From the IMG/VR virus record IMGVR_UViG_3300032167_000022: DNA of 32,771 bases. One strand, written 5' to 3'. A program made the translations under genes and the position numbers. This document shows, one piece after another, positions 2,474 through 31,748 of this stretch. Below the pieces are notes generated by a model. That model had not been told where the DNA came from. It did no database searches and saw only the letters and a list, made by a program, of their open reading frames with translations. The stretch comes from a virus. Positions within the stretch are counted from its first letter, which is position 1; the number at the start of each line of letters is the position of its first letter.

Positions 2474-2546
2474 TTGTGTTACCTCTTTCTTTTGGTTGTT
2501 TTTGTTTTGTGCGCTCTCTGTCGCGCTCTTGTTTCTTTCTGTATAT

Positions 2547-2575: not shown

Positions 2576-2660
2576 TAGGTTTTCGCAATATTTTTTTATT
2601 AACTTTTTATGAACATCGTTAAAACTTTAACAAACTCATACCACTGGACTACCAACAGCA

Positions 2661-2695
2661 GACAAAGAAAAGATGTGAGGTTTTACCCTCACATC
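2661..2695 (-). terminator. rho-independent terminator for gene 2859..2689
   Basis: Stem gatgtgagg/cctcacatc with a 6-nt loop, followed by TTTTCTTTGTC on the minus strand. The TGA stop is inside the hairpin. Confidence 0.6.
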
Positions 2696-2859
2696 CATCC
2701 AAGCTCTGCGCTTACTTCATTGAACTGCTCTTCATTGACATCGTACTCTACGTACTTTCTGCCATTCTCTTCGTAGAAGAAGAAGTTGCGCATCTCTACT
2801 CTGCCGCTTTCATAAATTTCATTAAACCACGCTTCACTCGTTGCTACTGTAATCATCAT
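2689..2859 (-). CDS. early hypothetical protein (56 aa, MMITVATSEAWFNEIYESGRVEMRNFFFYEENGRKYVEYDVNEEQFNEVSAELGWM)
   Basis: ATG ATG at 2859-2854 after the conserved UTR. The track ORF start at 2937 is translated promoter. Confidence 0.5.
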   Translation of the reverse strand: MMITVATSEAWFNEIYESGRVEMRNFFFYEENGRKYVEYDVNEEQFNEVSAELGWM

Positions 2860-2919
2860 TTTTTTAATCTCTCTTTCTGCCTTTCTTTTGGGCTTCAGGC
2901 TTTCCTCTGTTCTGTATAT

Positions 2920-2948
2920 ATTATACCACACTTTCATGGATTTGTCAA
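2920..2948 (-). promoter_or_regulatory. early promoter P8 (TTGACA-17-TGgTATAAT)
   Basis: tgtcaa at 2943-2948, attata at 2920-2925, spacer 17 nt. Confidence 0.7.
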
Positions 2949-7193: not shown

Positions 7194-8936
7194 ATGGCTT
7201 TATAGGATTTATTAAATTTATCTGAACAAAGAAAAAAAATTGGTTTATCTGAAGAAAGAGTAAATGCTATTATTCCAATAGTGCGTCAATACATTGCCTT
7301 TTGGAGAGAATATCCTGATATGTTTGTGGATTTTCTAGTTAGAGGTAATAGAACTGAAATAAAAGATGGCGAATTTAAATTTTATTTTTATTAGCGAGTA
7401 TTTTTGCGTGCGGCAATGCGACATCAGTATCTGTACGCAGTATTTCCTCGCGCCTATTCAAAATCATTCTTATCAGTAATGGTGTTAATGTGTAAATGTA
7501 TTTTGTATCCTCGTTGCAAATTGTTTGTTACTTCTGGAGGTAAGGAACAAGCTGCTGGTATCATTAAAGAAAAAGTTCAAGAAATTTGTACTCTTATTCC
7601 TGCGTTTAAAAATGAAATAGACTGGACAAGAGGTAAAACTCTTGAAGGAAAAGATTATTGTAAATATGTTTTTACAAATGGTTCATATTTTGATAATATC
7701 GCAGCGAGAGAAAGCTCTCGTGGTAAACGTCGTCATGGTGGTTTAATTGAGGAATGTGTTGGTGTTGATGGTACTATTCTTTCTGAAGTAATTATTCCTA
7801 CAATGAACGTTTCTCGTATGTGTATGGATGGTTCAACGCATCCAGAAGAATAGTTAAATAAGTCATAGATTTATGTAACTACAGCTGGATGGAAAAATAC
7901 ATTCCCTTATGATAAGCTCATTCAATTACTAGTATGGCAAATTGTTAAACCAGAAAAATCTATGATACTTGGTGGTACATATCGTATTCCAGTATTAGTT
8001 AAATTACTTGATAAAAACTTTATCCGTGATTTAAAAATGGATGGTACATTTAATGAGATGTCTTTTGACCGTGAATATGAAAGTAAATGGTCTGGTTCGG
8101 TTGAAGATGCTTTCTTTAATTCAGAAGTTTTTGATAGAAATAGAATTTTAAAATAGCCTGAATATGAAGCATCAGGGCGCTCAAGCAAATCTAGTTTTTA
8201 TATATTATCTGCGGATGTTGGTCGTAAAGGTTGTGATACTGTAGTATGCGTATTTAAGGTAACACCATAGCCGCAAGGCTCTTCCATAAAAACTTTAGTA
8301 AATTTATTTACTTTATCAGATGCGCATTTTGAAGATTAGGCTATTAAATTAAAAAGATTATTTTATAAATTTAATGCTCGTAGATTAATAATTGATGCTA
8401 ATGGTATGGGTATTGGTTTATTAGATTATTTAGTAAAGCCTCAAATTGACCCAGATACTGGCGATACTTTCCCTGATTTTGGTGTTTATAATGATGAAGA
8501 AGGATATTATAAAAAATATAGAACAGTAAATTGCGAACAAGATGCTGTTTATCAAATAAAAGCAAATGCTCCTATAAATACTGAAGCTCATGCTAATGCG
8601 CGTTCTCAATTATCTTCTGGAAAAGTTAAAATGCTTATAGATGAACGTGTGGCAAAAGTTAAATTAATGGGAACAAAATTAGGTTAGAATATGAAGCCTG
8701 AAGAAAGGGCAGAATATTTAAAACCATTTACTTTAACTTCCATATTAAGAGAGGAATTAATGAACCTTCGTGAAGAAAATGAAGGTGTTAATATTATACT
8801 TAAATAGGTAAACCGAGGGGTTAGAAAAGATAAATTTTCTGCCTTTGAATATGGTCTATATTATATTAAACAAGAAGAAGATAATAAAAAGAAGAAAAAG
8901 AAATTTAATGCTAAAGAGTGGATGTTTTTAAGTTAA
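7194..8936 (+). CDS. terL: terminase large subunit (about 580 aa, 9 in-frame TAG)
   Basis: RBS gagggt. The translation gives FYFY*RVF aligned with the T4 gp17 Y-Q-R adenine-binding motif, a deviant Walker A (PRAYSKS), YVTTAGW (motif III), and nuclease-domain aspartates (ILSADVGRKG, LIIDANGMGIGL). It ends at a TAA. Confidence 0.8.
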
Positions 8937-12608: not shown

Positions 12609-13427
12609 ATGTATTCACCTGGAATGGAAAAATGGTTCAAGAATAATTATGCTAGCCAGGCAAAATACGTTCAGTTTGGTTTTGGTCAGGTTGAACCTAA
12701 CCATCTTTCTGCTCAACGTACCGGCCAGATTTATGGCCAATTGCCTGCGGCTGCTGATATTGCTATTTTAGAGCAAGGCCAGTTTGTAAAGTATGACTAT
12801 GCGAAGGGTGTAGTTAATTTTGAGGGTGCTGGCGAATGGATGCTCGTTTATAATGAAATTAAGTTATATCGTGAAAATCAGGCAGATTGCGAATTCGCAA
12901 TGTTAAAAGATAATTATCAGGCTCGTGTTTATAGCCCATTTGGTTACGGTCTTGATAAGGACGGCAATCAGGCTCCTGATATTGTCTGGGACAAACAGTC
13001 TCGTTATTATAATGGTGTTGATGCTGAAGGTAATGACTCCATTACTCTTAATGATAAGACTTATAAGTTTGATGATGTAACTGCTGATGGTACCACTATT
13101 ACTGCTGCTGATGGTACTGAAAAGCATATTTCTGCTGACCCTTATGAGATGAATCTCACTAGTGACCCTTATCATATTGAAGGTCCTTATAAGGAAGCTA
13201 TGATGCCCGAAGGCACCACAATGGTTCCTCGCGTATTTAAGACTAATGTTGGTGATATTTTCACTACTAACACTGTAAATGCTGACACTCTTGCTGTTGG
13301 TGATATTCTTACTCCTGGTGCTAAGGGTATCCTTGAGGTTGGCGAAGGCGATATGAAGTGGCAGGTTGTTAAAGTTTATACAATGCCTGATAGACAGCAA
13401 GGCGTTAAGATTATGCGTATTGCGTAA
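12609..13427 (+). CDS. capsid-associated structural protein (272 aa; decoration or auxiliary capsid protein?), TAG-free, higher GC and different codon usage
   Basis: RBS aaaggaggacatatataATG. Complete ORF; Thr/Gly/Asp-rich. Confidence 0.5.
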   Translation: MYSPGMEKWFKNNYASQAKYVQFGFGQVEPNHLSAQRTGQIYGQLPAAADIAILEQGQFVKYDYAKGVVNFEGAGEWMLVYNEIKLYRENQADCEFAMLKDNYQARVYSPFGYGLDKDGNQAPDIVWDKQSRYYNGVDAEGNDSITLNDKTYKFDDVTADGTTITAADGTEKHISADPYEMNLTSDPYHIEGPYKEAMMPEGTTMVPRVFKTNVGDIFTTNTVNADTLAVGDILTPGAKGILEVGEGDMKWQVVKVYTMPDRQQGVKIMRIA

Positions 13428-13444: not shown

Positions 13445-14560
13445 ATGGCTTTAGATAGACAAAATTTAGTTGATTTGATGAAGCAGGTAGCAAAAGCTGA
13501 CCCTTCCGCTCCTACTGCTTATGCGTATGGTGATAAGACTCTTAGCTATGATGCTTTAAATGAAACTTTGCGTCAAGAATTAAATGAACTTGCTGGTTCA
13601 TATTCTGACTATCGTGAAAATAAAAATCTTATTTTCGCAGTAATTGAAGAAACTCTTGATGAAGTTCTTCCTAAGAAGGTTGAACAGAAATATGAGCAGT
13701 TTGCTGAAGTTAAGCAGTTTGCTCAAGGTGATAAGCCTGCGTTTCGCCGCAAGGTTGGTTCCAGCAAACGTGCTAAGCAGTTTATTACTCGTGTTGGTTT
13801 AAATGGTATTTATGAAGTATTTAAGCTTGCTCCTAATACCGATGAAGTAATTGAAGTTCGTACTTCTGCTGTCGGTGGAGCTGCTCAAATCGGATTTGAG
13901 GAGTTCCTTGATGGTCGTGTAGACTTCGCAGAAGTTACTCGCATCGTTATGGAGGGTATTGATGAACTTATTTATAAGGAAATCGCGCATGCTCTTAAAG
14001 CTTCTGTAAATCAGTTACCACCAGCAAATAGAGTTGCTGCTCCTGGCTTTGATGAGGCTGCTTTTGACAAACTTCTTACTATTGCTAATGCTTATGGTAC
14101 ACCTACTATTTATTGTACTTATGAATTTGCTGTTCAGATGATTCCATAGGAAGCTTGGAGATATACTGAGGCAATGAAGACTGAGCTTTGGAATACTGGT
14201 CGTCTCGCTTCTTATAAGGGACATAAGGTAGTTATTCTTGAGCAAGGCTTTGAGGATGAAACTAATAGTCGCAAAGTTATTGACCCAGGTTATGTATGGA
14301 TTATTCCTGCTGGCGCTGATAGCAAGCCTGTAAAGGTTGCTTTTGAAGGTCAGACTCTTGTTGATGAATAGGTTAATAAGGACCGTTCTCGTGAAATTCA
14401 GGTTTATAAGAAGGTTGGCGTTGTTGCTATGTTGGCAAATAACATTTGCTGCTATGTTGATACTGCTCTTCTTGGTGACCTTGATACTTGGCATCTTGAT
14501 GGTGTAACCGGTAAGGTTGCTACTTATGATGGCCGTCTTGATGGTTCTTTAAAGGCGTAA
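13445..14560 (+). CDS. major capsid protein candidate (371 aa, only 2 TAG)
   Basis: RBS aaggagtgaagaataATG. It joins track ORFs 13445 and 14174 through TAG. A strong terminator follows it, as is typical for a major capsid gene. The residue pattern is reminiscent of HK97-fold capsid proteins, but this is not verified. Confidence 0.5.
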
Positions 14561-14596: not shown

Positions 14597-14640
14597 GGGG
14601 GAGAATGGGGATGTTCCCCTTCTCCCTTATATTTATTAAT
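14597..14640 (+). terminator. rho-independent terminator after the capsid gene
   Basis: GC hairpin ggggagaatgggga-tgt-tccccttctccc followed by ttatatttatt. Confidence 0.6.
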
Positions 14641-14662
14641 GGAGATAAAGGAGATAAATAAA

Positions 14663-15226
14663 ATGGCAAATAATAAAATATGTTTAGTAAAGAATAGAAG
14701 TGCTGGAATGGTTGTTTATAAAATTCCAGAAGATGGAGTTAGACGTGAATTTCAGCCCGGTGAAACAAAAAAGATTGCGTTTACAGAGTTGGAGAAATTA
14801 ACTTATCAACCTGGTGGACGCACACTTATTGCGAATTTTCTTCAAATTACTGATGAAAAAGTAACTAGTGATTTAAATGTTCATACAGAAGCTGAGTACT
14901 ATATGTCTGAAGAACAAGTTGCTGAATTGATTTTAAATGGTGAACTTGACGCTTTCCTTGATGCTTTAGATTATGCCCCTATTGGCGTAATTGATTTAAT
15001 TAAGCAATATGCTATTTCTCTTCCAATGAATGACTTACAGAAGAGAGATGCTTTATTGAAAAAGACTGGTTTTGATGTGACCAGAGCTCTTGAAAATTTG
15101 CGCAATGAACAGCAAGTTGATAATGCTAATAAGGAAAATGATGCGGCTCCAGCTACTACTTCTAGACGTAGAACAACTACAAATTATAAAGTCGTTAATA
15201 AAACAGAAGAAAGTAAAAGTGAGTAA
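14663..15226 (+). CDS. hypothetical structural protein (187 aa), TAG-free
   Basis: RBS aaaggagataaataaaATG. The track ORF start at 14639 is probably too early. Confidence 0.5.
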   Translation: MANNKICLVKNRSAGMVVYKIPEDGVRREFQPGETKKIAFTELEKLTYQPGGRTLIANFLQITDEKVTSDLNVHTEAEYYMSEEQVAELILNGELDAFLDALDYAPIGVIDLIKQYAISLPMNDLQKRDALLKKTGFDVTRALENLRNEQQVDNANKENDAAPATTSRRRTTTNYKVVNKTEESKSE

Positions 15227-18641: not shown

Positions 18642-19676
18642 ATGAAGTTCGGTGTACGCGAAATTTGTGATGTCGTACTAAAGGCTAAAGCGCCCCAGAA
18701 GATTGGTAATAAGGTTTTCTACAAGGGTGAGCCTGTTATTTATTTTGATACTTTAAAGACTTCCAGTATGGAAGGTGCTGCTACCACCGTATATGCTCAA
18801 GGTGGTCGTGGTAACTCTAGACTTGTAGCATGGGAAGGTGAAAGAACTGTTACTTTCACAATGGAAGATGCTCTTATTTCTCCTGCTGGATTTATGATTC
18901 TTTCTGGTGCAGGACTTATTGAAGGTTCTAAAGATGTTAAGATTCAAGTCCATGTAGCAGAGCAGACTGACAAGACATATGTTACCAGTGAAGGTGATGC
19001 TTTAATTATTACTGAACAAGTAATTTCTAAAGACCCTGATGCTAGTATCTATGTAATGGTTATGAAAGATGGCGAGATTGAGACCGAGCCTTTTGTTGGA
19101 ACTATTTTAGATGCTGAAGGAACTTTTGAAGCAGTTAATGTCACTGAAAAGGAACAGGCAGAAATCACAGCAGCTATTGCGGCAGGTAGAGCAATTGTAA
19201 TTGAGGATATTGCTGACCCAGCTTATACTCCTAATCCTACTGATGTTACTACTGAGGATGTTGATAGTGGTTATACTGAAAAGATTCGTGGTTTCTACGA
19301 TGGCGCAGTTGTAATGGTTGACTATTATACTGAAAAGGGTAAGGGTGCTCAGCAAATTGAAATTACTCCTGATAAGTTCGGTGGTAACTATTATCTTGAG
19401 GCTTCTACTTTATTCCGTGATACTAATGGTGTAGATATGCCTGCTGAGTTTATTATTCCTAACTGTAAGATTCAGTCTAACTTTACCTTTACTATGGCTA
19501 GTTCCGGTGACCCATCTACATTTACATTTACTATGGACGCATTCCCGGATTACACTCGTTTTGATAAGACCAAGAAAGTTTTGGCTGCTATCCAGATTAT
19601 CAACGAGACTCAGAATGAGGAAGTATATCGTAGCAGAACTATTCATGACCCTGCTCACGATGCTATTTTAGGCTAA
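18642..19676 (+). CDS. major tail (tube) protein candidate (344 aa), TAG-free, higher GC
   Basis: RBS ggaggtacccagatATG. It is immediately followed by a strong terminator and lies upstream of the chaperone and tape measure genes. The composition suggests high expression. Confidence 0.5.
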   Translation: MKFGVREICDVVLKAKAPQKIGNKVFYKGEPVIYFDTLKTSSMEGAATTVYAQGGRGNSRLVAWEGERTVTFTMEDALISPAGFMILSGAGLIEGSKDVKIQVHVAEQTDKTYVTSEGDALIITEQVISKDPDASIYVMVMKDGEIETEPFVGTILDAEGTFEAVNVTEKEQAEITAAIAAGRAIVIEDIADPAYTPNPTDVTTEDVDSGYTEKIRGFYDGAVVMVDYYTEKGKGAQQIEITPDKFGGNYYLEASTLFRDTNGVDMPAEFIIPNCKIQSNFTFTMASSGDPSTFTFTMDAFPDYTRFDKTKKVLAAIQIINETQNEEVYRSRTIHDPAHDAILG

Positions 19677-19681
19677 TTTAA

Positions 19682-19891
19682 ATGATTATCCATTCTAGTA
19701 GAGCTACCAAGCTTGCGCCAGTGGCTTCTCCCAAGCAGCCTGAGGCTCAGCCTAAAGTGGAGAAAAAGCCTGAACGCAGACGTAAAGAAAAACAAAATCA
19801 TATTGAAGTAGCTGAACAGTTACCAGTAGCTGAAAAGGCGAAGAAGATTTTGGAAGAAATAGAAGAAGAAGTTAAAAGTGAAAATGAATAA
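19682..19891 (+). CDS. small charged protein (69 aa) 5 nt after the tail-tube stop; alternatively a frameshift extension of the tail tube protein
   Basis: ORF in the -1 frame relative to the tube gene. There is no clear RBS. Confidence 0.3.
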   Translation: MIIHSSRATKLAPVASPKQPEAQPKVEKKPERRRKEKQNHIEVAEQLPVAEKAKKILEEIEEEVKSENE

Positions 19892-19894
19892 AAT

Positions 19895-19935
19895 AAGGGA
19901 AGAGATAGAAATATCTCTTCCCTTATTTTTATTTA
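19895..19935 (+). terminator. strong rho-independent terminator after the major tail gene
   Basis: 13-bp stem aagggaagagata/tatctcttccctt followed by atttttattt. Confidence 0.7.
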
Positions 19936-19951: not shown

Positions 19952-21061
19952 ATGAAATTCAATTCATCAGATAATTTATTAAACAAATTAAAGGAAACTA
20001 GTGAAGGAGCAAAACTTGCTAACACCGTTGATGAAATACATAAGTTATTATCTCATATAGGTAATAAAGGGGATGAGACTATAGCTTAGAGGGCTTCTGA
20101 TTTTTTAACTTGGCTTTTATTTAATAAATCTATGAAGAATAAACTTTATCTTAGTGATGCAGTAAGAAATCAGTTATTAGAAAATCCTATAATTTTAGAT
20201 GTAGTTAATTTTTTTAAGCAAAGCTCTTCAACAAGTCAAAATATTCAACAAAATCTTGCAAATTATAATGAAACCTTTTTGGGTGATTTCTACAATCAAA
20301 GAGGTATTACAACTGAACAAATGTTTGTAAAACTTATAAATAATTTTATTGTAAATGGTGAAAAAATTCAACATAGTGGAAATGATTAGGCTACTGTTTG
20401 GTTATCTTCATTAGCAAAATATCTTGTTCAAGAGGGTGCTAATGAATTAGATAACTCATTCAAAAATTTGGTTAATGAATCAAATTTAATTAAAGAAAAT
20501 AGAAAATTACGTTTTGCTTATAGAGATGTAAAAATAGATACAAGGTCTAACAATCCAAATGCAACAATTTAGTTTGGAGTTGAAGATGAAAAATTATAGG
20601 GTGATTTACAAGCTGTATATTCAGTATTTTCTAGTGCAACAATTAAATCCAAAAATGATTTAAAAAATATTGATTTAGAGGAAGTAAATATTTTAAAAGC
20701 ATATTCAGCTTTTATCAATTATGCTCGTGGTAAAATTCCGCAATCAGAAATTAAAAATTTATTTGTTAGATATTATAAAGATAATAATGATGATTTTGTA
20801 CATAATCCATATATAACTTTACATATTAATCATATTATTTCAGTATATGCATTAACTGGTATGGGAACCACATTACAATCAGATTTAAATAGTATGCTTA
20901 AAGGTGCTCGCTATATAGTTGTTGTTGATAATATAAAATAGAAAGTAATTATTCATTCTACTCATGAAATCATTAATAAGATTTTATTAACAAAAAAATA
21001 TAGCAAAAATATAGTGACAAATATTCAATTGAATTTAACAAGCAAAAGCTTGACAAAATAA
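19952..21061 (+). CDS. unknown protein (330-369 aa, 4-5 TAG) inserted between the tail-tube terminator and the chaperone promoter; moron-like cassette
   Basis: RBS aaaggaggtttaaggaATG. Frame 2 is continuous. The last in-frame TAG is at 20939, and the TAA at 21059 lies inside the downstream promoter, so the true C-terminus is ambiguous. Codon usage is AT-richer than in neighbouring genes. Confidence 0.45.
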
Positions 21062-21078
21062 AAAATTTTTGGTATAAT
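21050..21078 (+). promoter_or_regulatory. plus-strand promoter (TTGACA-17-TGgTATAAT) before the chaperone and tape measure genes
   Basis: TTGACA at 21050-21055, TATAAT at 21073-21078 with tgg before it, spacer 17 nt. Confidence 0.65.
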
Positions 21079-21107: not shown

Positions 21108-21632
21108 ATGGCAAAATTAGCATTTTCAAAACTTGGTTTAAAAGCCAATCAAGAAACTACTGTTATTTAGATTGATGAATACGATGTAGAAATTAAAAAT
21201 TATTTACCTATTAATGATAAGTTAGAATTAATTACGAATGTAATTAATAATTCAATTGATGAACATAATTATATGAATCCTGTTAAAGTAGATATGTATA
21301 CTGAATTGGAAATTGTTGAGAAATATACTAATCTTACTTTTACTGATAAACAGAAAGAAGATATTGAAAAGTTATATGATTTACTTAAAGGAAATGGTAT
21401 TATTTTCAAGGTGTGTAATGCTATTCCAATAGAAGAGATTATGGAATTGCGCAACGCAATTAATCGGTCAGTAGATTCAGTTTATACATATCGTAATTCT
21501 GTGCTTGGTATTCTTGAGACAATTTCTACTGATTATTCAAATTTAGATTTTAATGCTACTGAAATACAGAAGAAGTTGGCAGACCCGCAGAACATGGAGT
21601 TACTTAAGTCTGTATTAACCAAATTAGGCTAA
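21108..21632 (+). CDS. tail assembly chaperone candidate (174 aa, 1 TAG)
   Basis: RBS aaaggagaaaataatATG. The assignment rests on its position immediately upstream of the tape measure gene and its size. Confidence 0.4.
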
Positions 21633-21667
21633 TAATATAACCTATTTTTTTAAAAAGAAATAGGAAT

Positions 21668-21710
21668 AATCGGATGTGAGAGATTGTTCTCACATCCGAT
21701 TTTTTATTTT
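21668..21710 (+). terminator. strong hairpin with a T tract between the chaperone and tape measure genes (attenuator?)
   Basis: 14-bp stem aatcggatgtgaga/tctcacatccgatt followed by tttttatttt. Confidence 0.6.
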
Positions 21711-21743
21711 GAACGAAAAGAGTGAAAGGAGTAATTATATATT

Positions 21744-24700
21744 ATGGCTCAATAGAGATTTGATTTTACATTAGGTATAAAAGCTGATACAAGTCAAGCC
21801 GAATAGAAAATGAATGAGTTGGCTAATTCTTTGAAAAAAATTGCGTCAAATCCTCCATCTTTATTAGATGATTAGGATTTAAAAGATGCTACGAAATCAG
21901 CGCAAGAATTAGAAAAACATTTGTCTAAAGCTGTAAATGTAAATACTGGTAAATTAGATTTATCAAAATTTTCAAAAAGTTTATCCTCTGCTGGATAGGA
22001 TTTAACATATTTTTAGAAAAATTTATCTAAACTTGGCGTAGAAGGTGAGTAGGCATTTTTAAAACTTGCTGAAAATATTGCTATGGCTGAAGTGCCAACA
22101 GTGCGTTTAAATAATCATTTAAAGAATTTTTTAGATGAATTAATTAAAGTCGGACGTTGGCAATTGAGTTCTAATATTATGCACGGACTGTAGGGAGCCA
22201 TTTAGACTGCTTATGGTTATGCGCAAGATTTAAATGAATCATTAACAAACATTAGAATTGTTACTGGTTAGACTACAGATGAAATGGCTAAATTTGCGTT
22301 AAGAGCAAATGATGCGGCAAAAGCTTTAAGTACAACTACTACTAACTATACAGATGCGGCATTAATCTTCTATCAGCAAGGTCTTGCGGAAGATTAGGTT
22401 GAAGAGCGCACAAACACAACAATTAAAATGGCTAATGCTACTGGTGAAAATGTTACAAAGATATCTGACCAATTAACTGCGGTTTGGAATAACTTTGATA
22501 ATGGTACCAAGCCATTGGAATATTATGCTGATGTTATGACTGCGTTAGGTGCGGCAACTGCTTCTAGTACTGATGAAATCGCTGAAGGTATTGAAAAGTT
22601 TGCTTCAATTTCTGAAATGATTGGTTTAAGTTATGAGTATGCGGCTTCCGCGCTTACGACCGTAACAGATGTCACTCGTCAAAGTGCCGATGTAGTAGGT
22701 ACTGCATTTAAAACGATTTTCGCACGTATTTAGGGTTTAAAACTTGGTGATACATTAGAAGATGGTACATCTTTAAATAAATACTCATAGGCTCTTGCTT
22801 CTGTTGGTATTTCTATTTTTGATTAGAATCAACAATTAAAAGATATGGATGATATCCTTGATGAGATGGGCGCTAAATGGTCATTACTTAGTAGAGACTA
22901 GCAAGCTGCGCTCGCGCAAACTGTTGCTGGCGTAAGACAGTACAATCAGCTTGTATCTCTTATGAATAACTGGGATTTCTTTAAATAGAATGTAAATGTA
23001 GCAAAAGGTTCTGAAGGAACTTTAACTGAACAATCAGCTATTTATGAAGAAAGCTGGGAAGCATCTTTAAAGAGAGTTAGAGCTTCTGCTGAAGGTATTT
23101 ATGATAGTTTAATTGATGAAGAATTTTTTATTAAGATTAATGATATTTTTGCTAAATTATTAGAAGGAATTAATGGAGCAATAGATGGTATTGGCGGATT
23201 TGAAGGAATTTTAAAAACTTTAGGTAGTGTATTTATGTCTTATTTTGCTTCTAAAATGCCGAAAGCATTATCAGGCATAAGCAATACTTTTAGTATTATT
23301 ACTGGAAAAGCTTTAAGAGATACTTAGAAAATACAATAGGAAAGTATTAATAGTTTATCTAAAATGCGTCCTGATGCTACTAATGCTGAAAAAATTTAGC
23401 AAGAAGGATTGAAAAAAGTTGCTATTTTAAAGCGTGAATTAACTAATATTTCTAATAAATTAACTGAAGAAGAAAAAGAAGAAAATTAGAATAGAATATA
23501 GCAAACCGCAGATATTTATGCTAATGCTGCTGCCATTGAAAAAGAAGCGGCAGAATTAAGAAAACTTAATGAAGAAAAAATTAAAAGTTCTTCTAATCAA
23601 ATTACAAACGAAGCTTTCGGATTTAGAGAAACTATTGCTGAAGATCAAAATCAAATAAATACATTAAGTTAGATATAGAATAGAACAAAATTAGATGATT
23701 CAAGATTAGATAAAGCTACTTCACGAGTTAATGAATTAACTGAGCAATTTTTTAAATTAAAAGATGCTATGGATGAAGTTATAGAATCTAAACAAATAGC
23801 TTTTGATAAAAAAGATTGGGAAGAATTTTCTAATATGGGAGAATTATTAGATTTTGATAGTAGAGAATCTAAAGAGTATTTCCAATATGTTGGAGAAGGA
23901 ATTGATTAGTTAAAAGCAAAATATATTGATTTTAGAAAACAAGAGTAGTAGTATGAATATTTAAAAAATAAAATAGATATTAATAAAGCAGCTTGGACTG
24001 CTCCTGATTTTAATTTATCTTTGGATGAAGCAAAAAATTCTATTTCACAATATTTAAGACAAATAGATGAATTAAAAAAATAGGGATTTGTTTAGTTAGA
24101 TATAGATACAACAGAGTTGTAGTCAAAATTGAAATCAACTGATGTAACTGTTGAGGATTTACAAAAATCATTTATTTCTTTTTTAAATAATTTATCAAAT
24201 AAAGCTTCAAAAACTTCTACAAGTTTTTCAAAAGATGGCGATAAGATTCATAGTGCATTATTAAAAATTTTAACTCCTTTAATGGGTGATAAAAGTCAAG
24301 CTGAAAAAGCAATTGAAGGTCTGCGCACAAAATTAGCAGAATTAACAGAAGAAGAAATGGATTCTGTTTTACGCACAACTGGAATGTTATCGGAAAGAGT
24401 AGATGAACTTCCAAAACATGCTTATAAAGCCTCAGAAGCTATAATGGAACTTGGAAGTGCTTTAATGTCTTTAAATTCTTTTATGAATTCTGTTAGTAGT
24501 ACTACTCAAATACTTGAAGATAATACTGCTTCTATGGCTGATAAAATAGGAGCTGTTGTTGGAGCAGCTTCTACTGGAATTTTTACTTTTAATTAGACTA
24601 AATAGGCAATGATTGCTGTTGTTGGAGCTGTAAGTAAATTTGCGGGAGCGGCAACTACAGCCGCCAAAAGTGGAGCTGCTTTATCGGGAATTTTAAGTAA

Positions 24701-27700
24701 AGGTTTAGCTGCTATTGGTGGCCCTACAACTTTAATTATTGCAGGTATTACTGCAGCAATAATGGGGTTAGTTGGCTTTTTAGGTACTAAATCAGCTGAA
24801 GCTGAAAAAGAATTAGAAGAAATTGAAAGAAAAACAGAAGAGCTTAATAATAAAATTTCAGAACAGTATACAGAAATTGAAACTAATAATGAATTAATTG
24901 AGTCTTATGAAAAATTATTAAATACTTATAAACTTACAGGTGAAGGAAAAGATTAGCTAGATATAAAAGCTAAAGAATTAGCTGAGGCTTTTAGAATTGA
25001 AGGATCGGCTTTAGCAACTTTAACTGGTTAGTATGCTGATTATGAAAATTTATTAAATAAAGCTAAAAATAAATCTTATAATAATGTTAATGAACAAATT
25101 AATTTAGTCCAAAATAAAAGAAATAGTAGTATAAAAGAATTTAATGATATTATTCAAGCTAAAAAGCATACTGATGATGTTGGGCATATAATGAGTAATC
25201 TTTCTTAGATTTCTTTATTTTCACTTAATGATGTTAATCGTAATTATGGCACTAAAAATGAATCTTCAAACGGAGATATGGCTGCTTTTAGAATTATTGA
25301 TGATTATTTAACAAAAAATAATTTAGGAGAAATTGGTAATAAAAATAGAAAAAATGGTACTATAATGACAGCTGAATTATTAGTTTCAGATATGGAAGAA
25401 GCTGTTAAGTTATTTGAATAGTTAGAAAATGAATTATTACCACAAGTAAAAGCTGTTAGTAACGGTCAAGAGACTAAAGAATTTGAAGAAAAAATTAAAA
25501 GTGCTAGAGAAGTTTTGTCAAAATATGTGGCATCAGATTAGGAATTAAAAGGTTTAGAATTAGCTTATAGTTTTAAAGATAAAGATTTTGAATCATTTGA
25601 AGAATATAATAATTTAATAATTGAAACAGAAAATCGTTTAAAGAGCTGGGGATTTAGTACAAGTGAAATTGAATCTACAATTAATACTGCAATAAATTTA
25701 ATTCCAGATTTAAAAATAAAACAATATGAAGAGTTAAGAGAAGTTGTAGAAACTTTATTATCTAATGGAGCTGGTAAAGGCATTACTGAAGGATTTTTAG
25801 GGCAATTATTTAGTGATGCTGAAAAAGGTGTTGGAATTTATGATAAATTAACTCTCGCTTCTTTAAATTGGTCAGTTTTAACAATTGATAATTGGGAGAA
25901 AGCTGCTAGTGCAGTTTAGAATTATACAAATGCAATTAAAGATGCCACTAATGCTCAAGAATTAAGGGATAGTGCTAAAAATGCTTTATCTTTATTAGAA
26001 GATGGTTTAACTGAAAAAGAAGGCGAAGAGTTAAAAGGACTTATAGATTGGGGTAATGAAGAAAAAGGTATAGTTGAATATACTGAATTCTTAAAAATGA
26101 ACCTTGAAGAGCAAAAGTCCTATTTGGAAGATTTTGCTAATATTAATTTATTTGAAAGATGGACCGATGAAATTCAAACTTCTAAAGATTTAATTGAATA
26201 GCAAAAATTACAGTTAGAAGATACAAAAAAAATATTAAAAAATGATTTATTATCTGTTTTAGATAGTGATGGTAGTTATCAGCAAGGTAATTACAGAAAA
26301 GTTTATGAATTATATGATTTAGATAAATGGTTTGAAAGTGAACAAGCTTTTGTTGATGCAATTTCTAACCCTAAAATGTTAGATAAATTGCTTAATAATC
26401 AAGATTTTCTTATTACTATTGGCATTGATGAAGCTGAACTTATTCAAAATGCTGAAAATACTATTAATTCTGCTGAAGAATCTTTAGAATTAGAATTAAA
26501 TACTACTCCATCTGAACATTCTATAAAATATTTATTAGATGAAATTGAATCTCTTGAAACAGAATTAACAGTTAAAGCAAATACTTTAGAAGCAGATGAA
26601 ATCCTTGATGAATTATTAGATAGACAATATCAATTAGATGTCCATGTTAATGCCGTTTTAGGTCAAGAACTTGATAAAAATTTAGAAAAGATAAAAAGTT
26701 TTAGTGATACTTTATCTCTAATTGGGGAAAATTATTAGGTTAGTGCAGATAATCTTCATGCTTTAGAAGCAGTAATTCCTGGAATTACTCAAAAATTAAC
26801 TGTAAGTCAAGAAGGATTAATTTAGCTTCATAAAACTGAGGCAATTGCGGCAATTGAAAATACTAAAGCAAATACAATTAGTTCAAAAACAAAAATTTAG
26901 AATCGTATTGATGAATTAAATGTAACAAAAACAGCTGCTGAAGCTGCTTAGAAAGCAATTCAAGCTGAAATAGATAAAAACTTAAAAGATGAAGAGACTC
27001 GTACTAATGCTGTTAATAAAATGGCTGAAATTAGAGCCAATTATCAAAAAGCAACTAATGAAGGTGTAGCAGCAGATTATGCTAAAACATCAGCAGAAAT
27101 GTCAGAAGATAGTGATGACAATATGGAAAATGATGTTGAAAATGCTAGTATTTCCACAGCTGCTTATGTAGAAAAATTCATTGCTTTACATGCTAATACT
27201 GAAAACTATAAACAAGAATATTTAAAATTTGTTGAAACTATGCTTTTAGCTGATTAGGCTGCTTTAGCTGGAGATCCTGTAGCTTTAAGTGCTTTATTAG
27301 GTAATGTATAGGCTGTAAAAGATTTAGGTGGTACTGCAGAATAGATTGCTTAGGCAGAATTAGTAGCTAATGAAATGAAATTAACGGCTTCTGAAAAAGG
27401 GCAAGTTATCTAGTATAATGCTGCTATTGTTTAGAATAAAATCAATGATGAAGGCAAATTTGATTTTTCTGGTACGAGAAATGATGAAACTGGAAAAACA
27501 ATAAAAGAATCTGAAGAAACGAAGAGAAAAACAGAAGATTATTTAAATAATTTAGCAAAAGAATATGCAAAATTAAATGAAGATACTGCTAACGAATTTT
27601 TACAAAATCACTATGATTATTATGGTTCAATTATAACTTCTAGTGATGAAGCAATTGCTAAATTAAATATTGATTTAGCTGAAGAAACGGCAGCTCTTAA

Positions 27701-30700
27701 TTCTTTAGATTAGATGATAGTAAATATAAAAAATGGAAAAAGTGCTACCGGAACCTCTTCACAATCTTCTGAAACTTTACAAGAAACAGTTAAAGAACAT
27801 AACCCTTATCAAAATGTTGATAATACTATTGAAGCTATTAATCTAAAATTAGAAGAATAGAAAGCTATAACTGAAAATTTAGAAAAAGGCACTGAAGAAC
27901 ATTTAGCATCTTTAGAAAATGAGCGCTTATTAACAGCAGAAATTGGTAAATATCAACAAGAGAAACTTAATATTGCTGAAAATGAATTAGCTACTTTAGA
28001 ATAGAAATTATCTCAATTTGGAGCAGAATATGACCCATTAACTAGAAAAATTGTTAATTATGATGAAATAGTTAATGCTAAAGCAAGAGAAGTTGATAAA
28101 TTAAATAAAGAACTTGCGGCCGCTTCTGGTCCTGAAAAAGAAAGATTATAGGAGCAAGTAAATGCTGCTGAAAAGCTTTATAATAATGTTAAAGAGTTAG
28201 CTGATGAACATAGCAATACTGTTGATATTATTAATGATACTACTACTGCTTTAAGAGAAAATGGTTAGGCTATTGAAGATAATATAAAAACACAGGAAGA
28301 GTTTAATAAAGAATTACAAAAAGCAAGAAAAGAAGTAGAAAAAACAAATAAAGAAATTCAAGAAACCATTGATAATCTTAAAGATGAAGTAGATATTTAC
28401 CATCAATTAAATCATGAATTAGATAAGTAGAATGAAGAATTAGATAGATTAAGTAAATTAAAAGATTCTTTATATGGTGAAAATCATATAAAAGCAGCTA
28501 AATAGGAATTAGAAGTTGTAAAACAAACATAGAAAACATATGAAGATTTACTTGATACTACATTAGATGACCTTGAAAATGCTATGGGTAAAGCTACTGT
28601 ACATTTTGATACTAAAATTGTATATGATGAAGATGGAGCAATTTTAAATTATCAAGAGTTACAGGAAGAATTAGTTCGTAAAGCTGAAACAGCTGCTAAT
28701 GATTTAACAGCTGCTAACATTCATTCTTTAACACTGCCTGAAGAATAGCGCGAGGAATATTTAAAACCATATCAAGATGCTTATGATAATGCTTTAGCTG
28801 CTTAGAAAGATGGATAGGATGCTATTAATAAAGTTCATGATTTAAGAGATTAGGCTTATAATTATGGACAGCAAGCAAGAGATAGTTTCTATAAAGGTTT
28901 AGACCTTTAGGCTGAATTATGGGATTATAAATTTAATCTTTAGATTGAAATCAATGATAATGATTTGGAAGAATTAGAAAAGCAATTAGAAAAGATTGAA
29001 GATAAAGGCTATGAAATGTCTGAAGCAATAGCTTTAATTAATACAGATTTTAGAAGTCTTTATGAAAATAATTATACATATTTACAAAGTGAAATTGATA
29101 ATTTATAGAGTATGTATAGTGCTGGAGAAATTACAGAAGAAGCATATATAGAAAGATTAAAGAAAATCCAAGAAGAAGCCAAAGAAGCAGCGAATGAACT
29201 TGAAGAACTTGATGAAAAAGTATATGAATATTATGGCATTACATTAGAGAAAGCTAATGAAGAATTAGAATTCTATATCAAGTAGATGGAACATGCAACT
29301 GAGGTATTAGACCACTATAAAAATATTATTGAATTGGTTAATGGTGAATACGATTATGAGCGTTTAGGTATCGTTCTTGAGGGTTAGGCACATAATCTAT
29401 AGAATGAAATGGAAGTTGCTGTTAAATGGTTTGAGACCTTAGATGCGGAAAAAGCTGCAATTGAAGCTGAGTTAGCTAATCCTGGCATATCTGATGAATA
29501 GCGTGAAAAATTAAAAGAAGCTTATGAACCTATTTATGAAGCTTGGATGGAAGCACATGATGAAATGTTATCTAAAACTACTGAATGGGTTGAAGCAACT
29601 AAAGCAGTTATGGAAAATACTATGGCAAAAGCTGCTAGAGATTTAGAGATGTCTTTCACAGATGGCGTAGGTTTTGATGCCTTAAACGATTCTATGGATA
29701 GATTAAATGAATATTCTGATATTTATTTAACTAAAACTAATCAAATTTATGAAGTTCAGAAAATGATGCGTACTGCTCAACAAGCCGCAGATAAAACCGA
29801 CAATGCTTCATCTAAACAGAGATTGAAAGCATTTATGGACGAACTGGGAGATTTACAAGAGAAAAATAAATTAAGTAATCTTGAATTAGAAATTGCGCAA
29901 AAGAAATATGATTTACTTGAAGCACAAATTGCTCTTGAAGAAGCTCAAAATGCTAAATCTACAGTTAGATTACAAAGAGATTCTGAAGGTAATTTTGGTT
30001 ATGTATATACTGCTAATTAGGAACAAGTTGCTGAAGCTGAAACGCAAGTATATGAAGCAGAGCAAGAGTTATATAATTTAGCATTAGAATCTGCCAATGA
30101 TTACGCATAGAAGCGTATTGAATTGCAGCAATCATTATATGACGATTTAGTTGAGTTAGAAGAAAATCGTGTTGCTGGTATGTATGCAACTGAAGAAGAA
30201 TATAATAAAGCTCGTGAATAGCTGATTAAAGAATATAATGATTTATTTATTGCTTATGAGGATTAGTATAATTTAGCAATTGAAGCTGATGGTTATTTAA
30301 GAGTTTAGATTGCTGAAAGACATAATAAACAACAATTATCTGATACTGTTGGATTTTTAGATGAATCCACATAGAATATTCTTGAAACAACTACATTACA
30401 GCAAGAAACATGGATTACTCATTTTGATAATATTTTAGAAAAAACTCGTGGATGGCGTAATGATACCAATAGTGAATATGATTAGTCTGCTATTGATGCT
30501 TCTGAATGGTTAACAGCAACGCAAGGATATTTGAAAACTTGTGAAGATTCTTATAAAACTTGGTAGACTACAGTTACTGAACAAAATAAATATGTTTAGG
30601 AAGCTTTAGTTCATACTCAGGGAGAAACTGATAAATTAACTACTGAAAGTGATGAATTAAAAACAGCTTTAATTGGTGAAGATGGAAATGGTGGTCTTGT

Positions 30701-31664
30701 AAAAGCTCTTGGAGATGAATTATAGAAAGTTAGAGAGTTAATTACAGAATATGCTTTACAAAGTAATGGATTAGATATTTTAGCTGAAAAATATGAATCT
30801 TTAAGAGGTCAAATTGATAGTTTAATTTCATCAATTAATAGTATTCCTGATTGCGCTGAATGGTGTGTAAAAACATATGGAGATGGCGGAATGGGAGGAG
30901 GAGATACTGGAGGTAATTTCCCAGTTGATCCTGACCCAGTTTTTTCATCTGATGATGATGATAGTAAATTTGGTTGTGGTGCTCATACTGCTACAACAGC
31001 AGATGATATTAAAGATACATCAATAACATCAAATACTAATAAAAATTATGCTGTAGAATCTGCTAAATATTGGAAAGGTCAACAAAGTATTGGAGAAGCT
31101 GCTGCTAATTTAGGAATTTCTGTTAGTGAAATGAATAAAATAAATATGGCTTTAGCGGGTTAGACTGAAAATTGGAATGGTACTAAAATTTTCACTGAAG
31201 AATTTGCTGATTAGAATTTATCTGATGATTATGAAAGAACTCAAAAAAGTGGATTTGATGAAATTATTAATAATCAACAATCTGCTGCTAATGTAAATAA
31301 ATGGCTTATAGATGAAGGTATAGCAACTGGTGCCACAGGCATGTATACTGGGGCTTGGGGTCCAGAAGGTAGATTAGCGTTATTGCATGAAAAAGAATTA
31401 GTATTAAATAAAGAAGATACTAAAAATTTCTTACATGCAACCGATATTTTAAGAAGTATATCTGATGTAATAGATTTACAAGCTATGTCAAATCAATTTA
31501 ATACTTTATCTGCTAGTATCTATTCTGGTTCTTCTGGAATATTAGAACAATCAGTTCATATAGAAGCTAATTTCCCGAATGTATCTGATAGGAATGAAAT
31601 TGAAGAAGCGTTTAATAATCTTATTAATACAGCTTCTCAATATGCGAATCGTAAAACTATATAA
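21744..31664 (+). CDS. tail tape measure protein, about 3306 aa, with on the order of 100 in-frame TAG and no in-frame TAA or TGA in the parts I translated
   Basis: RBS aaaggagtaattatatattATG. Frame 0 links nine track ORF fragments (22428, 24129, 24609, 26376, 27021, 29547, 30891, 31341). It carries the TP901-type tape measure core motif (GISIFD*NQQLKDMDDILDEMGAKWSLLSRD*QAALAQTVAGVRQYNQLVSLMNNW), a Gly/Ala-rich membrane segment (MIAVVGAVSKFAGAATTAAKSGAALSGILSKGLAAIGGPTTLIIAGITAAIMGLVGFLG), and long coiled-coil stretches. It ends at a TAA followed by a terminator. Confidence 0.85.
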
Positions 31665-31669: not shown

Positions 31670-31702
31670 AGGGGTCTGATAATTCAGACCCCTTATTTTT
31701 AT
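31670..31702 (+). terminator. rho-independent terminator after the tape measure gene
   Basis: Stem aggggtctga/tcagacccct with a 4-nt loop, followed by tatttttat. Confidence 0.7.
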
Positions 31703-31719
31703 TGGACTAGATTTATTAG

Positions 31720-31748
31720 TTGACTTTAGCAAAAAATTAAGTTATAAT
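31720..31748 (+). promoter_or_regulatory. plus-strand promoter (TTGACT-17-TATAAT) for the distal tail genes
   Basis: TTGACT at 31720-31725, TATAAT at 31743-31748, spacer 17 nt. An RBS gaaaggaga and an ATG follow at 31776. Confidence 0.6.

What the first reader, a model, noticed from the sequence alone, without database searches (positions are those of the whole stretch)
21744..31664. An exceptionally long tape measure protein (about 3300 aa), preceded by a terminator-like attenuator
The single frame from 21744 to 31664 encodes about 3306 residues with the TP901-type core motif, a Gly/Ala-rich membrane segment and kilobases of coiled coil. Using roughly 0.15 nm per residue for tape measure proteins, this predicts a tail near 0.5 micrometre, among the longest for siphovirus-like phages. 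It is separated from the upstream chaperone gene by a strong hairpin with a T tract (21668-21710), which may throttle transcription or translation of this giant recoded gene. I see no obvious G/GT frameshift slippery site.
Basis: partly seen in the sequence, partly recalled or inferred. Interest (0 to 1): 0.55.

Follow-up and report, generated by a model that had tools for sequence, protein, structure and literature searches.

The report
Giant TAG-recoded phage tape measure gene
This is a real 3,306-codon tail-length "ruler" gene of an uncultured phage that reads the TAG stop codon as glutamine; its size is normal for its already described phage group, and a conserved transcription terminator sits directly in front of it.

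Summary
Frame 21744-31664 has 78 in-frame TAG codons but no TAA or TGA until the TAA at 31662. Reading TAG as sense raises coding density in the window from 29% to 91%. Alignments in conserved contexts show TAG = Gln. The product is one tape measure protein: its TP901-type core scores far above the curated cut-offs, and it is collinear end to end with single-ORF homologues, including standard-code ones. It has no lysozyme or peptidase domain and no internal repeats.

The length is not exceptional. The 120 best public homologues are 2,682-3,363 aa, and the published TAG-recoded phAss-1 group has 3,149-3,209 aa. A cultured relative gives 0.156 nm/aa, so the tail should be about 0.5 µm. Thermus phage P74-26 reaches about 1 µm.

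The hairpin at 21668-21701 plus T tract is real. It is conserved in seven TAG-recoded relatives, with compensatory changes in 6 of 9 base pairs. It lies in a conserved layout: consensus promoter, 174-aa putative chaperone gene, terminator, tape measure gene, terminator, promoter. The tape measure gene has no consensus promoter of its own, so attenuated read-through is the most likely mode of expression, though this is untested. No G/GT frameshift product is possible.

This is a new member of a known kind.

The parts
21744..31664 (+). Tape measure protein gene: 3,306 codons plus TAA, with 78 in-frame TAG read as Gln
   Evidence: stop census; PF10145, PHROG tape measure families, TIGR01760; collinear with homologues of 2,682-3,363 aa; ENA gene callers already call a 3,306-aa product on other contigs of the same phage
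22197..23111 (+). TP901-family tape measure core (aa 152-456; PF10145 covers aa 189-396)
   Evidence: both far above the curated cut-offs
24531..24788 (+). Gly/Ala-rich hydrophobic segment (aa about 930-1015), two membrane-like stretches
   Evidence: Kyte-Doolittle windows >1.4; 25% Ala+Gly
31320..31655 (+). Conserved C-terminal module (aa 3193-3304), about 65% identical across the clade; no confident globular fold on its own
   Evidence: 35 invariant columns; AlphaFold2 pLDDT 61
21724..21731 (+). Shine-Dalgarno GAAAGGAG of the tape measure gene, 12 nt before the ATG
   Evidence: Read from the sequence; GAGAGAAAGGAG is conserved in relatives
21668..21711 (+). Intrinsic-terminator-like hairpin (15 bp) plus T tract between the 174-aa gene and the tape measure gene
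   Evidence: conserved with compensatory changes in 7 genomes; a hairpin plus T tract at the same place in more distant relatives
21641..21664 (+). AT-rich first hairpin just after the stop of the 174-aa gene; its 3' arm is part of the conserved TAGGAATAATC motif
21108..21632 (+). 174-aa YomO-family protein, putative tail assembly chaperone (1 TAG); no frameshift extension
   Evidence: Precomputed PF27287 YomO; homologue of the EF1 gene that follows the tube gene; weak fold matches to annotated tail assembly chaperones; alternative frames closed
21050..21078 (+). Consensus sigma-70/sigma-A-type promoter TTGACA-17-TATAAT with TG extension, in front of the 174-aa gene
   Evidence: 12/12 match; conserved in L016-L021 and in L003, L004, L006, L007
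31670..31703 (+). Terminator-like hairpin (10 bp, 6 G-C) plus T tract, 6 nt after the tape measure stop codon
   Evidence: the equivalent element is present in relatives
31720..31748 (+). Promoter TTGACT-17-TATAAT for the next tail gene (ATG at 31776)
   Evidence: conserved in L017-L020
19890..19929 (+). Terminator-like hairpin (18 bp) after the tube protein gene and a 69-aa ORF
   Evidence: conserved AAGGGAAGAGAT...ATCTCTTCCCTT plus T tract in relatives
18642..19676 (+). Major tail (tube) protein gene, TAG-free
   Evidence: tblastn to tube proteins of Enterococcus, Bacillus and Lactococcus phages; PF27173 YomU_Tube
19952..21061 (+). Hypervariable 369-aa gene in the slot between the tube-gene terminator and the 21050 promoter
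   Evidence: No hit in Pfam, PHROGs, NCBIfam or PADLOC; unrelated to the occupants of the same slot in six relatives

Best explanation
The frame 21744-31664 is one gene. It encodes the tail tape measure protein of a large, low-GC, SPbeta-/phAss-1-like siphovirus of Firmicutes that translates TAG as glutamine (genetic code 15).

The protein has four parts that can be told apart. There is a TP901-type core near the N-terminus and a Gly/Ala-rich hydrophobic segment. A long helix-rich, poorly conserved middle acts as the ruler; length differences between relatives lie there. The last about 110 residues are strongly conserved and presumably dock in the tail tip. With 3,306 residues it should set a tail of about 0.5 µm, which is ordinary for this clade.

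Expression (inferred, not shown): a consensus host-type promoter at 21050 drives the 174-aa YomO-like putative chaperone gene. A conserved intrinsic terminator at 21668-21711 stops most of these transcripts. The tape measure gene has a ribosome-binding site but no consensus promoter, so it is made only from transcripts that read through. A second terminator at 31670 and a new promoter at 31720 close the unit.

This would keep the tape measure protein, needed in a few copies per virion, far below its partner and the tube protein. The canonical G/GT frameshift is not involved. In addition, all 78 TAG codons must be decoded, so the protein can accumulate only once TAG suppression is nearly complete.
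For: Gene and code:
- 78 TAG, 0 TAA and 0 TGA in frame, against 165 and 519 TAA+TGA in the other frames.
- Coding density rises from 29% to 91% with TAG as sense.
- In conserved contexts TAG aligns with Gln in standard-code relatives in 9 of 21 cases, against a 4.4% background.
- Against the recoded relative L003, TAG aligns with TAG or Gln in 16/26 and 17/23 cases.

Identity:
- TIGR01760 and PF10145 match far above their cut-offs, and PHROG tape measure families match.
- The gene order matches Enterococcus phage EF1 from terminase to tape measure.
- Homologues of 2,682-3,363 aa are collinear over the whole length.
- Standard-code relatives carry one ORF of 2,870 or 2,931 aa.

Ruler:
- No tandem or internal repeats.
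- The extra length relative to P0001 lies in aa about 1726-2194.
- Perkons has a 2,439-aa tape measure protein and a 380.6 nm tail.

Regulation:
- The hairpin plus T tract is present.
- Seven genomes keep 100% pairing, 6 of 9 pairs carry compensatory changes, and 0 of 500 shuffles reach the observed values.
- More distant relatives using the standard or TGA=Trp code have unrelated hairpins plus T tracts at the same place.
- The promoter before the 174-aa gene is conserved in 11 loci.
- The window's + strand has only three exact consensus promoters, at 4879, 21050 and 31720.
- The terminator and promoter after the tape measure gene are conserved.

Frameshift:
- No frameshift product is possible.
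Against: - No transcript or protein data exist. Termination efficiency was not measured.
- The window encodes a sigma-factor-like protein at 4936-5994, and the phAss-1 group is annotated with a Q-type antiterminator. Late transcription may therefore ignore these terminators, or use promoters my sigma-70 scan cannot see.
- No suppressor tRNA was found in the window or in 10 kb beyond its left end. The TAG decoder is therefore inferred from relatives such as phAss-1, which has tRNA-Sup-CTA genes.
- The chaperone role of the 174-aa protein rests on gene position and on fold matches of E = 0.03-0.5. PDB and sequence searches gave nothing.
- The cultured relative EF1 lacks the terminator and has an extra gene there.
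Confidence: 0.6

Rival explanations
1. Insulator rather than attenuator. The hairpins are efficient terminators that confine transcripts started by host RNA polymerase at the internal consensus promoters (21050, 31720). The tape measure gene is transcribed from a distant late promoter by a terminator-resistant polymerase. That could be a Q-type antiterminated enzyme, a phage-sigma holoenzyme, or a YonO-like phage RNA polymerase as in SPbeta.
For: - A sigma-factor-like gene opens the rightward operon.
- The phAss-1 group is annotated with a Q-dependent antitermination protein.
- The same 'terminator then ribosome-binding site then gene' arrangement also precedes 19952-21061. Several essential-looking genes therefore lie behind strong terminators.
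- The structural module carries SPbeta-named families. That SPbeta late genes use the YonO polymerase is my own recollection, not a tool result.
Against: No antiterminator or phage RNA polymerase gene was identified in this window. A 15-bp stem with a U6AU4 tract followed directly by the gene is equally what a leaky attenuator looks like. Either model still makes the terminator the device that sets the tape measure gene apart from its upstream neighbour.
Confidence: 0.28
2. The hairpin mainly acts on RNA stability or processing. It would be a 3' protective stem for the upstream mRNA, or an RNase cleavage site that uncouples the 10-kb tape measure message, and not a site of transcription termination.
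For: The structure is conserved by covariation, which shows selection on pairing but not which process uses it. A second AT-rich hairpin precedes it.
Against: The T tract directly after the stem is conserved in every relative, together with an A-rich stretch before it. That is the signature of intrinsic terminators and is not needed for a stability stem. Stems of 12-15 bp are short for RNase III.
Confidence: 0.08
3. The long frame is not a functional single gene. It could be a decayed pseudogene, two adjacent tail genes, or a gene in which TAG is a leaky stop rather than a Gln codon.
For: Table 11 breaks it into fragments of at most 157 aa. No suppressor tRNA is present in the window.
Against: - Only TAG interrupts the frame, 78 times, never TAA or TGA.
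- The same pattern holds in almost all + strand genes, which all end in TAA or TGA.
- TAG aligns with Gln or TAG in conserved positions.
- Homologues cover it end to end as single ORFs.
- The same phage was assembled on at least 23 contigs.
- With leaky stops, the yield after 78 codons would be nil.
Confidence: 0.02

Closest known systems
phAss-1 / 'Phassvirus' group, 'Caudoviricetes code 15 clade' (Babkin et al. 2023, PMC10607447; OQ749652)
   Same: Uncultured siphovirus-type phages found in gut metagenomes, with genomes of about 136 kb. TAG is read as Gln in virion genes, including TerL, portal and the tape measure protein. Their tape measure proteins are 3,149-3,209 aa. They are related to Enterococcus phage EF1.
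   Different: Only distantly related in sequence. The tube protein is 53% identical over 57% of its length, and the tape measure core is 34% identical. There is no nucleotide-level match to any deposited phage. Gene order after the tube gene differs in the phAss-1 record. The regulatory layout around the tape measure gene is not mentioned in any passage of that paper that I retrieved with term searches; I did not read the paper in full.
Enterococcus phages EF1, EF5, H1 and VRE9_1-4 (about 140 kb, cultured, standard code)
   Same: The structural module is syntenic from terminase to tape measure. The tube protein is 39% identical and the 174-aa gene 33% identical. The tape measure protein is 2,675 aa, with homologous core, middle and C-terminal module.
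   Different: They use the standard code and have a shorter tape measure protein. Two extra genes lie between the chaperone-like gene and the tape measure gene, and there is no terminator directly upstream of the tape measure gene.
Psychrobacillus phage Perkons (MT325768), with the SPbeta-type structural module as background
   Same: The tape measure core is homologous at 30% identity. It is a long-tailed siphovirus, with a measured tail of 380.6 ± 16 nm for a 2,439-aa tape measure protein. The window's genes carry SPbeta-named Pfam families: YomU tube, YomO, YomV, YomW, YonB and YonD.
   Different: Perkons is temperate, uses the standard code and comes from soil. Its tape measure protein is shorter and other genes surround it.
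Lambda-type G/GT tail assembly chaperone pair with programmed -1 frameshift
   Same: A small gene in the chaperone position just upstream of the tape measure gene. A device is likewise needed to make much more chaperone than tape measure protein.
   Different: There is no overlapping ORF and no productive slippery site. The ratio-setting element here appears to be transcriptional (promoter plus terminator) instead of translational.
Thermus phages P74-26 and P23-45
   Same: Siphoviruses with very long tails and giant tape measure proteins.
   Different: Their tails are nearly 1 µm, about twice the length predicted here (PMC10034513). They are unrelated phages of a Gram-negative thermophile and use the standard code.

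Membership tests
TP901-family phage tail tape measure protein (TIGR01760 / PF10145) | Core-domain match above the curated score cut-off | tested here: met
   TIGR01760 scores 111.5 bits against 28.8. PF10145 scores 91.4 bits against 33.2.
TP901-family phage tail tape measure protein (TIGR01760 / PF10145) | Location in the tail module, downstream of the tube protein and chaperone genes and upstream of the distal tail genes | tested here: met
   Synteny with EF1 and with 13 metagenomic relatives
TP901-family phage tail tape measure protein (TIGR01760 / PF10145) | Protein length determines tail length (about 0.15 nm per residue) | not testable with these tools
   Needs electron microscopy. The only calibration comes from the relative Perkons, at 0.156 nm/aa.
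TP901-family phage tail tape measure protein (TIGR01760 / PF10145) | Optional cell-wall-degrading module (lysozyme, transglycosylase or M23 peptidase), which many members carry | tested here: not met
   No such domain in Pfam, NCBIfam or PHROGs. No PDB sequence match. The C-terminal model has low confidence. This feature is optional and not required for membership.
TAG-to-Gln (code 15) recoded phages | In-frame TAG in many genes, with genes ending only in TAA or TGA, and coding density restored by recoding | tested here: met
TAG-to-Gln (code 15) recoded phages | TAG positions correspond to Gln in homologues | tested here: met
   Gln in 9 of 21 conserved-context positions against a 4.4% background. 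TAG aligns with TAG or Gln in 16/26 and 17/23 cases.
TAG-to-Gln (code 15) recoded phages | Phage-encoded suppressor tRNA(CUA) | tested here: inconclusive
   None in the window or in 10 kb to its left. The rest of the genome was not available. phAss-1 has such genes elsewhere in its genome.
G/GT tail assembly chaperone with -1 programmed frameshift | A slippery heptamer leading into an open -1 frame that extends the product | tested here: not met
   The heptamers at 21137 and 21539 lead into frames closed within a few codons. All alternative frames are closed by 21638 or 21667.
G/GT tail assembly chaperone with -1 programmed frameshift | Chaperone fold or family of the upstream protein | tested here: inconclusive
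   AlphaFold2 model with pLDDT 79. No PDB match. Only weak BFVD matches, E = 0.03-0.5, to proteins annotated as tail assembly chaperones.
Intrinsic (factor-independent) transcription terminator | G+C-containing stem-loop directly followed by a U/T tract | tested here: met
   15-bp stem, 6 G-C pairs, 4-nt loop, then T6AT4
Intrinsic (factor-independent) transcription terminator | Pairing maintained in evolution | tested here: met
   100% of cells paired, 6 of 9 pairs with compensatory changes, 0 of 500 shuffles as good, slid controls 32-48% paired
Intrinsic (factor-independent) transcription terminator | Actual termination, and its efficiency | not testable with these tools
   Needs in vitro transcription or 3'-end mapping
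Phage 'moron' (autonomous promoter-gene-terminator unit inserted in a late operon) | Own promoter and own terminator flanking one gene | tested here: met
   Promoter at 21050, gene 21108-21632, terminator at 21668
Phage 'moron' (autonomous promoter-gene-terminator unit inserted in a late operon) | Accessory gene, present in some relatives and absent in others | tested here: not met
   The 174-179-aa gene is present at this position in all relatives examined. It has 2,639 homologues.

The most novel reading that the evidence does not exclude
In this clade the near-universal G/GT frameshift may have been replaced by a transcriptional ratio-setter: strong promoter, chaperone-like gene, leaky terminator, tape measure gene. 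The tape measure gene also carries 78 TAG codons, while the tube and capsid genes carry none or two. It would therefore be the protein most dependent on the switch of genetic code, so tail assembly, which starts on the tape measure protein, would be gated by that switch.
Probability: 0.2. Interest if true: 0.55.

Novelty: new member of a known kind. Interest (0 to 1): 0.3.

Why it matters
On the headline claim, the main result is a correction. A tape measure protein of 3,300 residues looks extraordinary next to textbook phages. It is the normal size in a large, mostly uncultured clade of SPbeta-/phAss-1-like siphoviruses, sampled at least partly from gut metagenomes, whose tails should be 0.4-0.5 µm. 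A TAG-recoded branch of that clade has already been described.

Two points add something. First, the tape measure gene is bracketed by conserved terminators and lacks a consensus promoter, while its putative chaperone gene has a consensus one. This gives a concrete, testable model for how such phages keep a giant, low-copy protein at the right level without the G/GT frameshift. Second, a gene with 78 recoded stops sets a hard lower bound on suppression efficiency. At 99% per codon the full-length yield is 46%; at 95% it is 2%. That makes this gene a sensitive natural reporter of how complete the code switch is during infection.

Tried and rejected
- Megablast of 22.8 kb of the window against deposited phages found no match.
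- tRNA scans of the window, 19 related loci and 10 kb beyond the left edge found no tRNA. The TAG decoder was not located.
- Rfam gave nothing at gathering thresholds. Only chance-level hits lie on the hairpin.
- The local Pfam copy lacks the PF27xxx SPbeta families, so the neighbouring genes gave no Pfam hit. Those names come from precomputed annotation.
- A PDB sequence search gave nothing for the tape measure protein. For the 174-aa protein it gave only chance-level matches, with E at least 0.058.
- The TAG-free C-terminal 149 aa gave a low-confidence model (pLDDT 61), so no fold search was run on it.
- I asked whether the 69-aa ORF at 19682-19891 is a frameshift extension of the tube protein. 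It is not; its frame opens only at 19682.
- The minimum-energy fold pairs the chaperone stop region with the tape measure start codon, which suggested translational coupling. I rejected this because the pairing is absent in six relatives, where z is about 0.
- A covariance model of the terminator finds only its seven training loci at high score. The hairpins of more distant relatives are therefore analogous in position but not alignable.
- PADLOC on the 369-aa variable gene gave nothing.
- Literature searches for YomU/YomO/YomI and for PMBT10 were uninformative. One search for a terminator upstream of tape measure genes found no relevant report.
- TAG identity from EF1 alone was inconclusive at about 30% identity. 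It became clear only with closer relatives and conserved-context filtering.
Full report

With the bacterial code the region 21744-31664 is a string of short ORFs. In the frame that starts at the ATG of 21744 there are 78 TAG codons. There is not one TAA or TGA until the TAA at 31662-31664.

The two other frames of the same 9.9 kb contain 165 and 519 TAA+TGA triplets. Their longest TAA/TGA-free runs are 117 and 31 codons. The open frame cannot be due to chance.

The pattern holds across the window. Treating TAG as sense raises the share of the window covered by ORFs of at least 150 aa from 29% to 91%. Recoding TGA does nothing. All complete + strand genes end in TAA, or once in TGA.

The ATG is preceded by GAAAGGAG (21724-21731). 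Gene callers of ENA assemblies of the same phage already report a 3,306-aa product here.

**2. What does TAG encode?**

Comparison with the distant cultured relative EF1 alone was inconclusive. I therefore restricted the count to TAG positions whose eight flanking residues are at least 5/8 identical.

- Against standard-code relatives, TAG aligns with Gln in 9 of 21 cases. The background Gln frequency is 4.4%.
- Against the TAG-recoded relative L003, TAG aligns with TAG or Gln in 16 of 26 cases, and in 17 of 23 cases in the reverse direction.

This is code 15, as published for the related phAss-1 group (PMC10607447). The phAss-1 record carries tRNA-Sup-CTA genes. I found no tRNA in the window, in the related structural modules, or in 10 kb beyond the window's left end. 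The decoder of this phage is therefore inferred and not seen.

**3. What is the protein?**

It matches the TP901 tape measure core: TIGR01760 at aa 152-456 with 111.5 bits against a cut-off of 28.8, and PF10145 at aa 189-396 with 91.4 bits against 33.2. It also matches PHROG tape measure families whose profiles are about 2,650 positions long.

The surrounding genes are syntenic with Enterococcus phage EF1. The order is terminase, portal, major capsid protein, tube protein, a 170-aa gene, then the tape measure gene. Precomputed annotation gives the genes SPbeta-type family names: YonD, YonB, YomW, YomV, YomU tube and YomO.

The 120 best homologues in the public protein collection are 2,682-3,363 aa. 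They match the query along its length with uneven conservation:

- aa 1-600 are conserved.
- aa 600-1100 are moderately conserved and include the hydrophobic Gly/Ala-rich segment at about aa 930-1015.
- aa 1100-2200 are variable.
- aa 2200-3000 are conserved.
- aa 3000-3190 are a variable linker.
- aa 3193-3304 form a C-terminal module about 65% identical across the clade.

Standard-code relatives have one uninterrupted ORF of 2,870 or 2,931 aa.

There are no tandem or internal repeats. The extra length relative to a 2,964-aa homologue sits mainly in aa about 1726-2194, in the helix-rich middle.

No lysozyme, transglycosylase or peptidase domain was found. The C-terminal 149 aa alone give a low-confidence model. 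My reading, which is an inference, is that this segment folds only within the tail tip.

The 'coiled coil' description is supported only indirectly, by low Pro+Gly content, amphipathic periodicity in 31% of windows, and weak SMC-like hits.

**4. How unusual is the length?**

Most siphovirus tails are 50-200 nm (PMC10034513), so a predicted 0.5 µm tail is long in general terms. Two estimates agree:

- 496 nm at the usual 0.15 nm per residue (PMC10194240).
- 516 nm using the homologous Perkons tape measure protein, which has 2,439 aa for a measured 380.6 nm, or 0.156 nm/aa.

Within its own lineage the length is normal:

- Every one of the 120 best homologues is at least 2,682 aa, and three are longer than this one.
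- IMG/VR relatives have 2,695-2,931 aa.
- Further relatives have 2,682-3,363 aa.
- The published TAG-recoded phAss-1 group has 3,149-3,209 aa.
- The record for any virus is the tail of P74-26, nearly 1 µm.

**5. The hairpin and its context**

The 111-nt spacer between the 174-aa gene and the tape measure gene holds three elements. First is an AT-rich hairpin (21641-21664). Next is a 15-bp stem with six G-C pairs (21668-21701). Last is a T6AT4 tract.

Six further TAG-recoded relatives, fetched through their tape measure proteins, have the same module: TAGGAATAATC, a stem of 12-15 bp at -20 to -28 kcal/mol, then a T tract.

In the alignment of the seven sequences all cells of nine consensus pairs are paired. 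Six pairs show compensatory double changes. None of 500 shuffles reaches the observed values. Sliding the partner by 1-3 columns drops pairing to 32-48%.

More distant relatives also have a strong hairpin plus T tract 40-60 nt before the tape measure ATG. These include standard-code genomes (L004, L006, L007) and TGA=Trp genomes (L008, L009). Their hairpin sequences are unrelated, and a covariance model of the first group does not detect them. The element is thus maintained in place while its sequence turns over. No Rfam family matches it.

The context is equally conserved:

- A perfect TTGACA-17-TATAAT promoter with TG extension lies at 21050-21078, just before the 174-aa gene. It is present in ten related loci.
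- A hairpin plus T tract follows the tape measure stop (31670-31703). After it comes a promoter (31720-31748) and the ribosome-binding site of the next tail gene, in the window and in relatives.
- Another conserved terminator follows the tube gene (19890-19929).
- On the + strand of the whole window only three exact consensus promoters exist, at 4879, 21050 and 31720.
- The roughly 30 nt between the T tract and the tape measure start leave no room for a sigma-70-type promoter.

The simplest reading is that the tape measure gene is transcribed only by read-through of the terminator. Its mRNA would then be a small, fixed fraction of that of the upstream gene.

The main rival is that late transcription is carried out by a terminator-resistant polymerase, and that the terminators only confine transcripts from the internal host-type promoters. 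A sigma-factor-like gene opens the rightward operon. A Q-type antiterminator is annotated in the phAss-1 group. I cannot separate the two models without transcript data.

The hairpin does not occlude the ribosome-binding site. A predicted long-range pairing of the upstream stop region with the tape measure start codon is not conserved, so I dismissed it.

**6. No G/GT frameshift**

The 174-aa gene has two formal X XXY YYZ heptamers, but both alternative frames are closed by TAA/TGA throughout. No extended product is possible. The relatives have the same single gene of 174-179 aa followed by the terminator.

Its role as a chaperone rests on three points:

- its position;
- homology to the EF1 gene that follows the tube gene;
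- an AlphaFold2 model (pLDDT 79, a beta-hairpin plus a helical bundle) whose weak BFVD matches include several annotated tail assembly chaperones (E = 0.03-0.5).

PDB searches gave nothing. The unit of promoter, gene and terminator has the architecture of a 'moron', but the gene is conserved in all relatives and is not accessory.

**7. Recoding load**

TAG supplies 41% of the Gln codons of the tape measure gene, 78 of 190. If each is decoded with efficiency e, the full-length yield is e^78. That gives 46% at e = 0.99, 9% at 0.97 and 2% at 0.95. The protein can therefore accumulate only when suppression is almost complete.

This fits the published idea that recoding delays late genes (bioRxiv 10.1101/2021.08.26.457843). 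By contrast, the genes for the most abundant virion proteins avoid TAG (see the passing observations).

**8. Verdict**

It is wrong about the exceptional nature of the length.

The phage is a new, divergent member of an already described kind: SPbeta-/EF1-/phAss-1-like siphoviruses with tape measure proteins of about 3,000 aa, some of them TAG-recoded. The conserved promoter-gene-terminator-tape measure-terminator-promoter layout is the one element for which I found no description in the papers available here. That rests on a single targeted search. It is an ordinary type of regulation but gives a testable model.

Noticed in passing
window 12609-13427, 13445-14560, 14639-15226, 18642-19676: The genes for the presumably most abundant virion proteins avoid TAG. 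They include the major capsid and tube proteins. They have 2 TAG among 50 Gln codons, against 151 of 378 in the other + strand genes (Fisher p = 3e-8). They also switch their Gln preference from CAA to CAG (p = 2e-12) and have higher GC3. This suggests that TAG is decoded less efficiently than ordinary Gln codons.
   Followed up: partly
window 368-2948 and 4860, minus strand: Nine near-identical consensus promoters (TTGACAAATnCnnAAAAGTGTGGTATAAT) lie here. Most sit just upstream of a small minus-strand ORF that is TAG-free or nearly so. This looks like an early region with one strong host-type promoter per small gene. The promoters at 4860 (-) and 4879 (+) form a divergent pair.
   Followed up: partly
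window 4936-5994 (+): The first gene of the rightward operon matches a PHROG 'sigma factor' family (phrog_5767, E = 9e-49). It ends in a Cys-rich, zinc-ribbon/HNH-like tail and contains 4 TAG codons. A phage sigma factor could redirect late transcription, which bears on how the terminators are read.
   Followed up: no
L003-L009, L016-L021 (relatives): Relatives whose tape measure cores are 52-67% identical use three genetic codes. L004, L006 and L007 use the standard code. L003, L005 and L016-L021 read TAG as Gln (37-94 TAG in the tape measure gene). L008 and L009 read TGA as Trp (17-21 TGA; Trp in 54 of 61 conserved-context positions). Frequent code changes among related phages are already reported in the literature.
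   Followed up: partly
window 19952-21061 (+): The slot between the tube-gene terminator and the 21050 promoter holds a hypervariable gene. The 369-aa product has no hit in Pfam, PHROGs, NCBIfam or PADLOC. It has no BLAST similarity to the 343-568-aa proteins in the same slot of six relatives. Among those six, only two pairs are related to each other.
   Followed up: partly
window 19682-19891 (+): A TAG-free 69-aa Lys/Glu/Pro-rich ORF starts 6 nt after the tube gene stop. Similar small ORFs of 55-82 aa follow the tube gene in L016, L019 and L021. It is not a frameshift extension of the tube protein, because its frame opens only at 19682.
   Followed up: yes
window 7194-8936 (+) versus L002 383-3491: The large terminase gene is intact in the window. 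In Enterococcus phage EF1 the two homologous halves are separated by an HNH homing endonuclease annotated as a phage intron.
   Followed up: no
P0096 and P0107 (tape measure homologues), C-terminal 240 aa: By eye, some homologous tape measure proteins carry an SH3-like insertion (…KGSSVTVKTSATRFTRDGGNGTRM…GWVAKNDLEGF) just before the conserved C-terminal module. The window's protein has a different, unassigned linker there. This was not tested with any tool.
   Followed up: no
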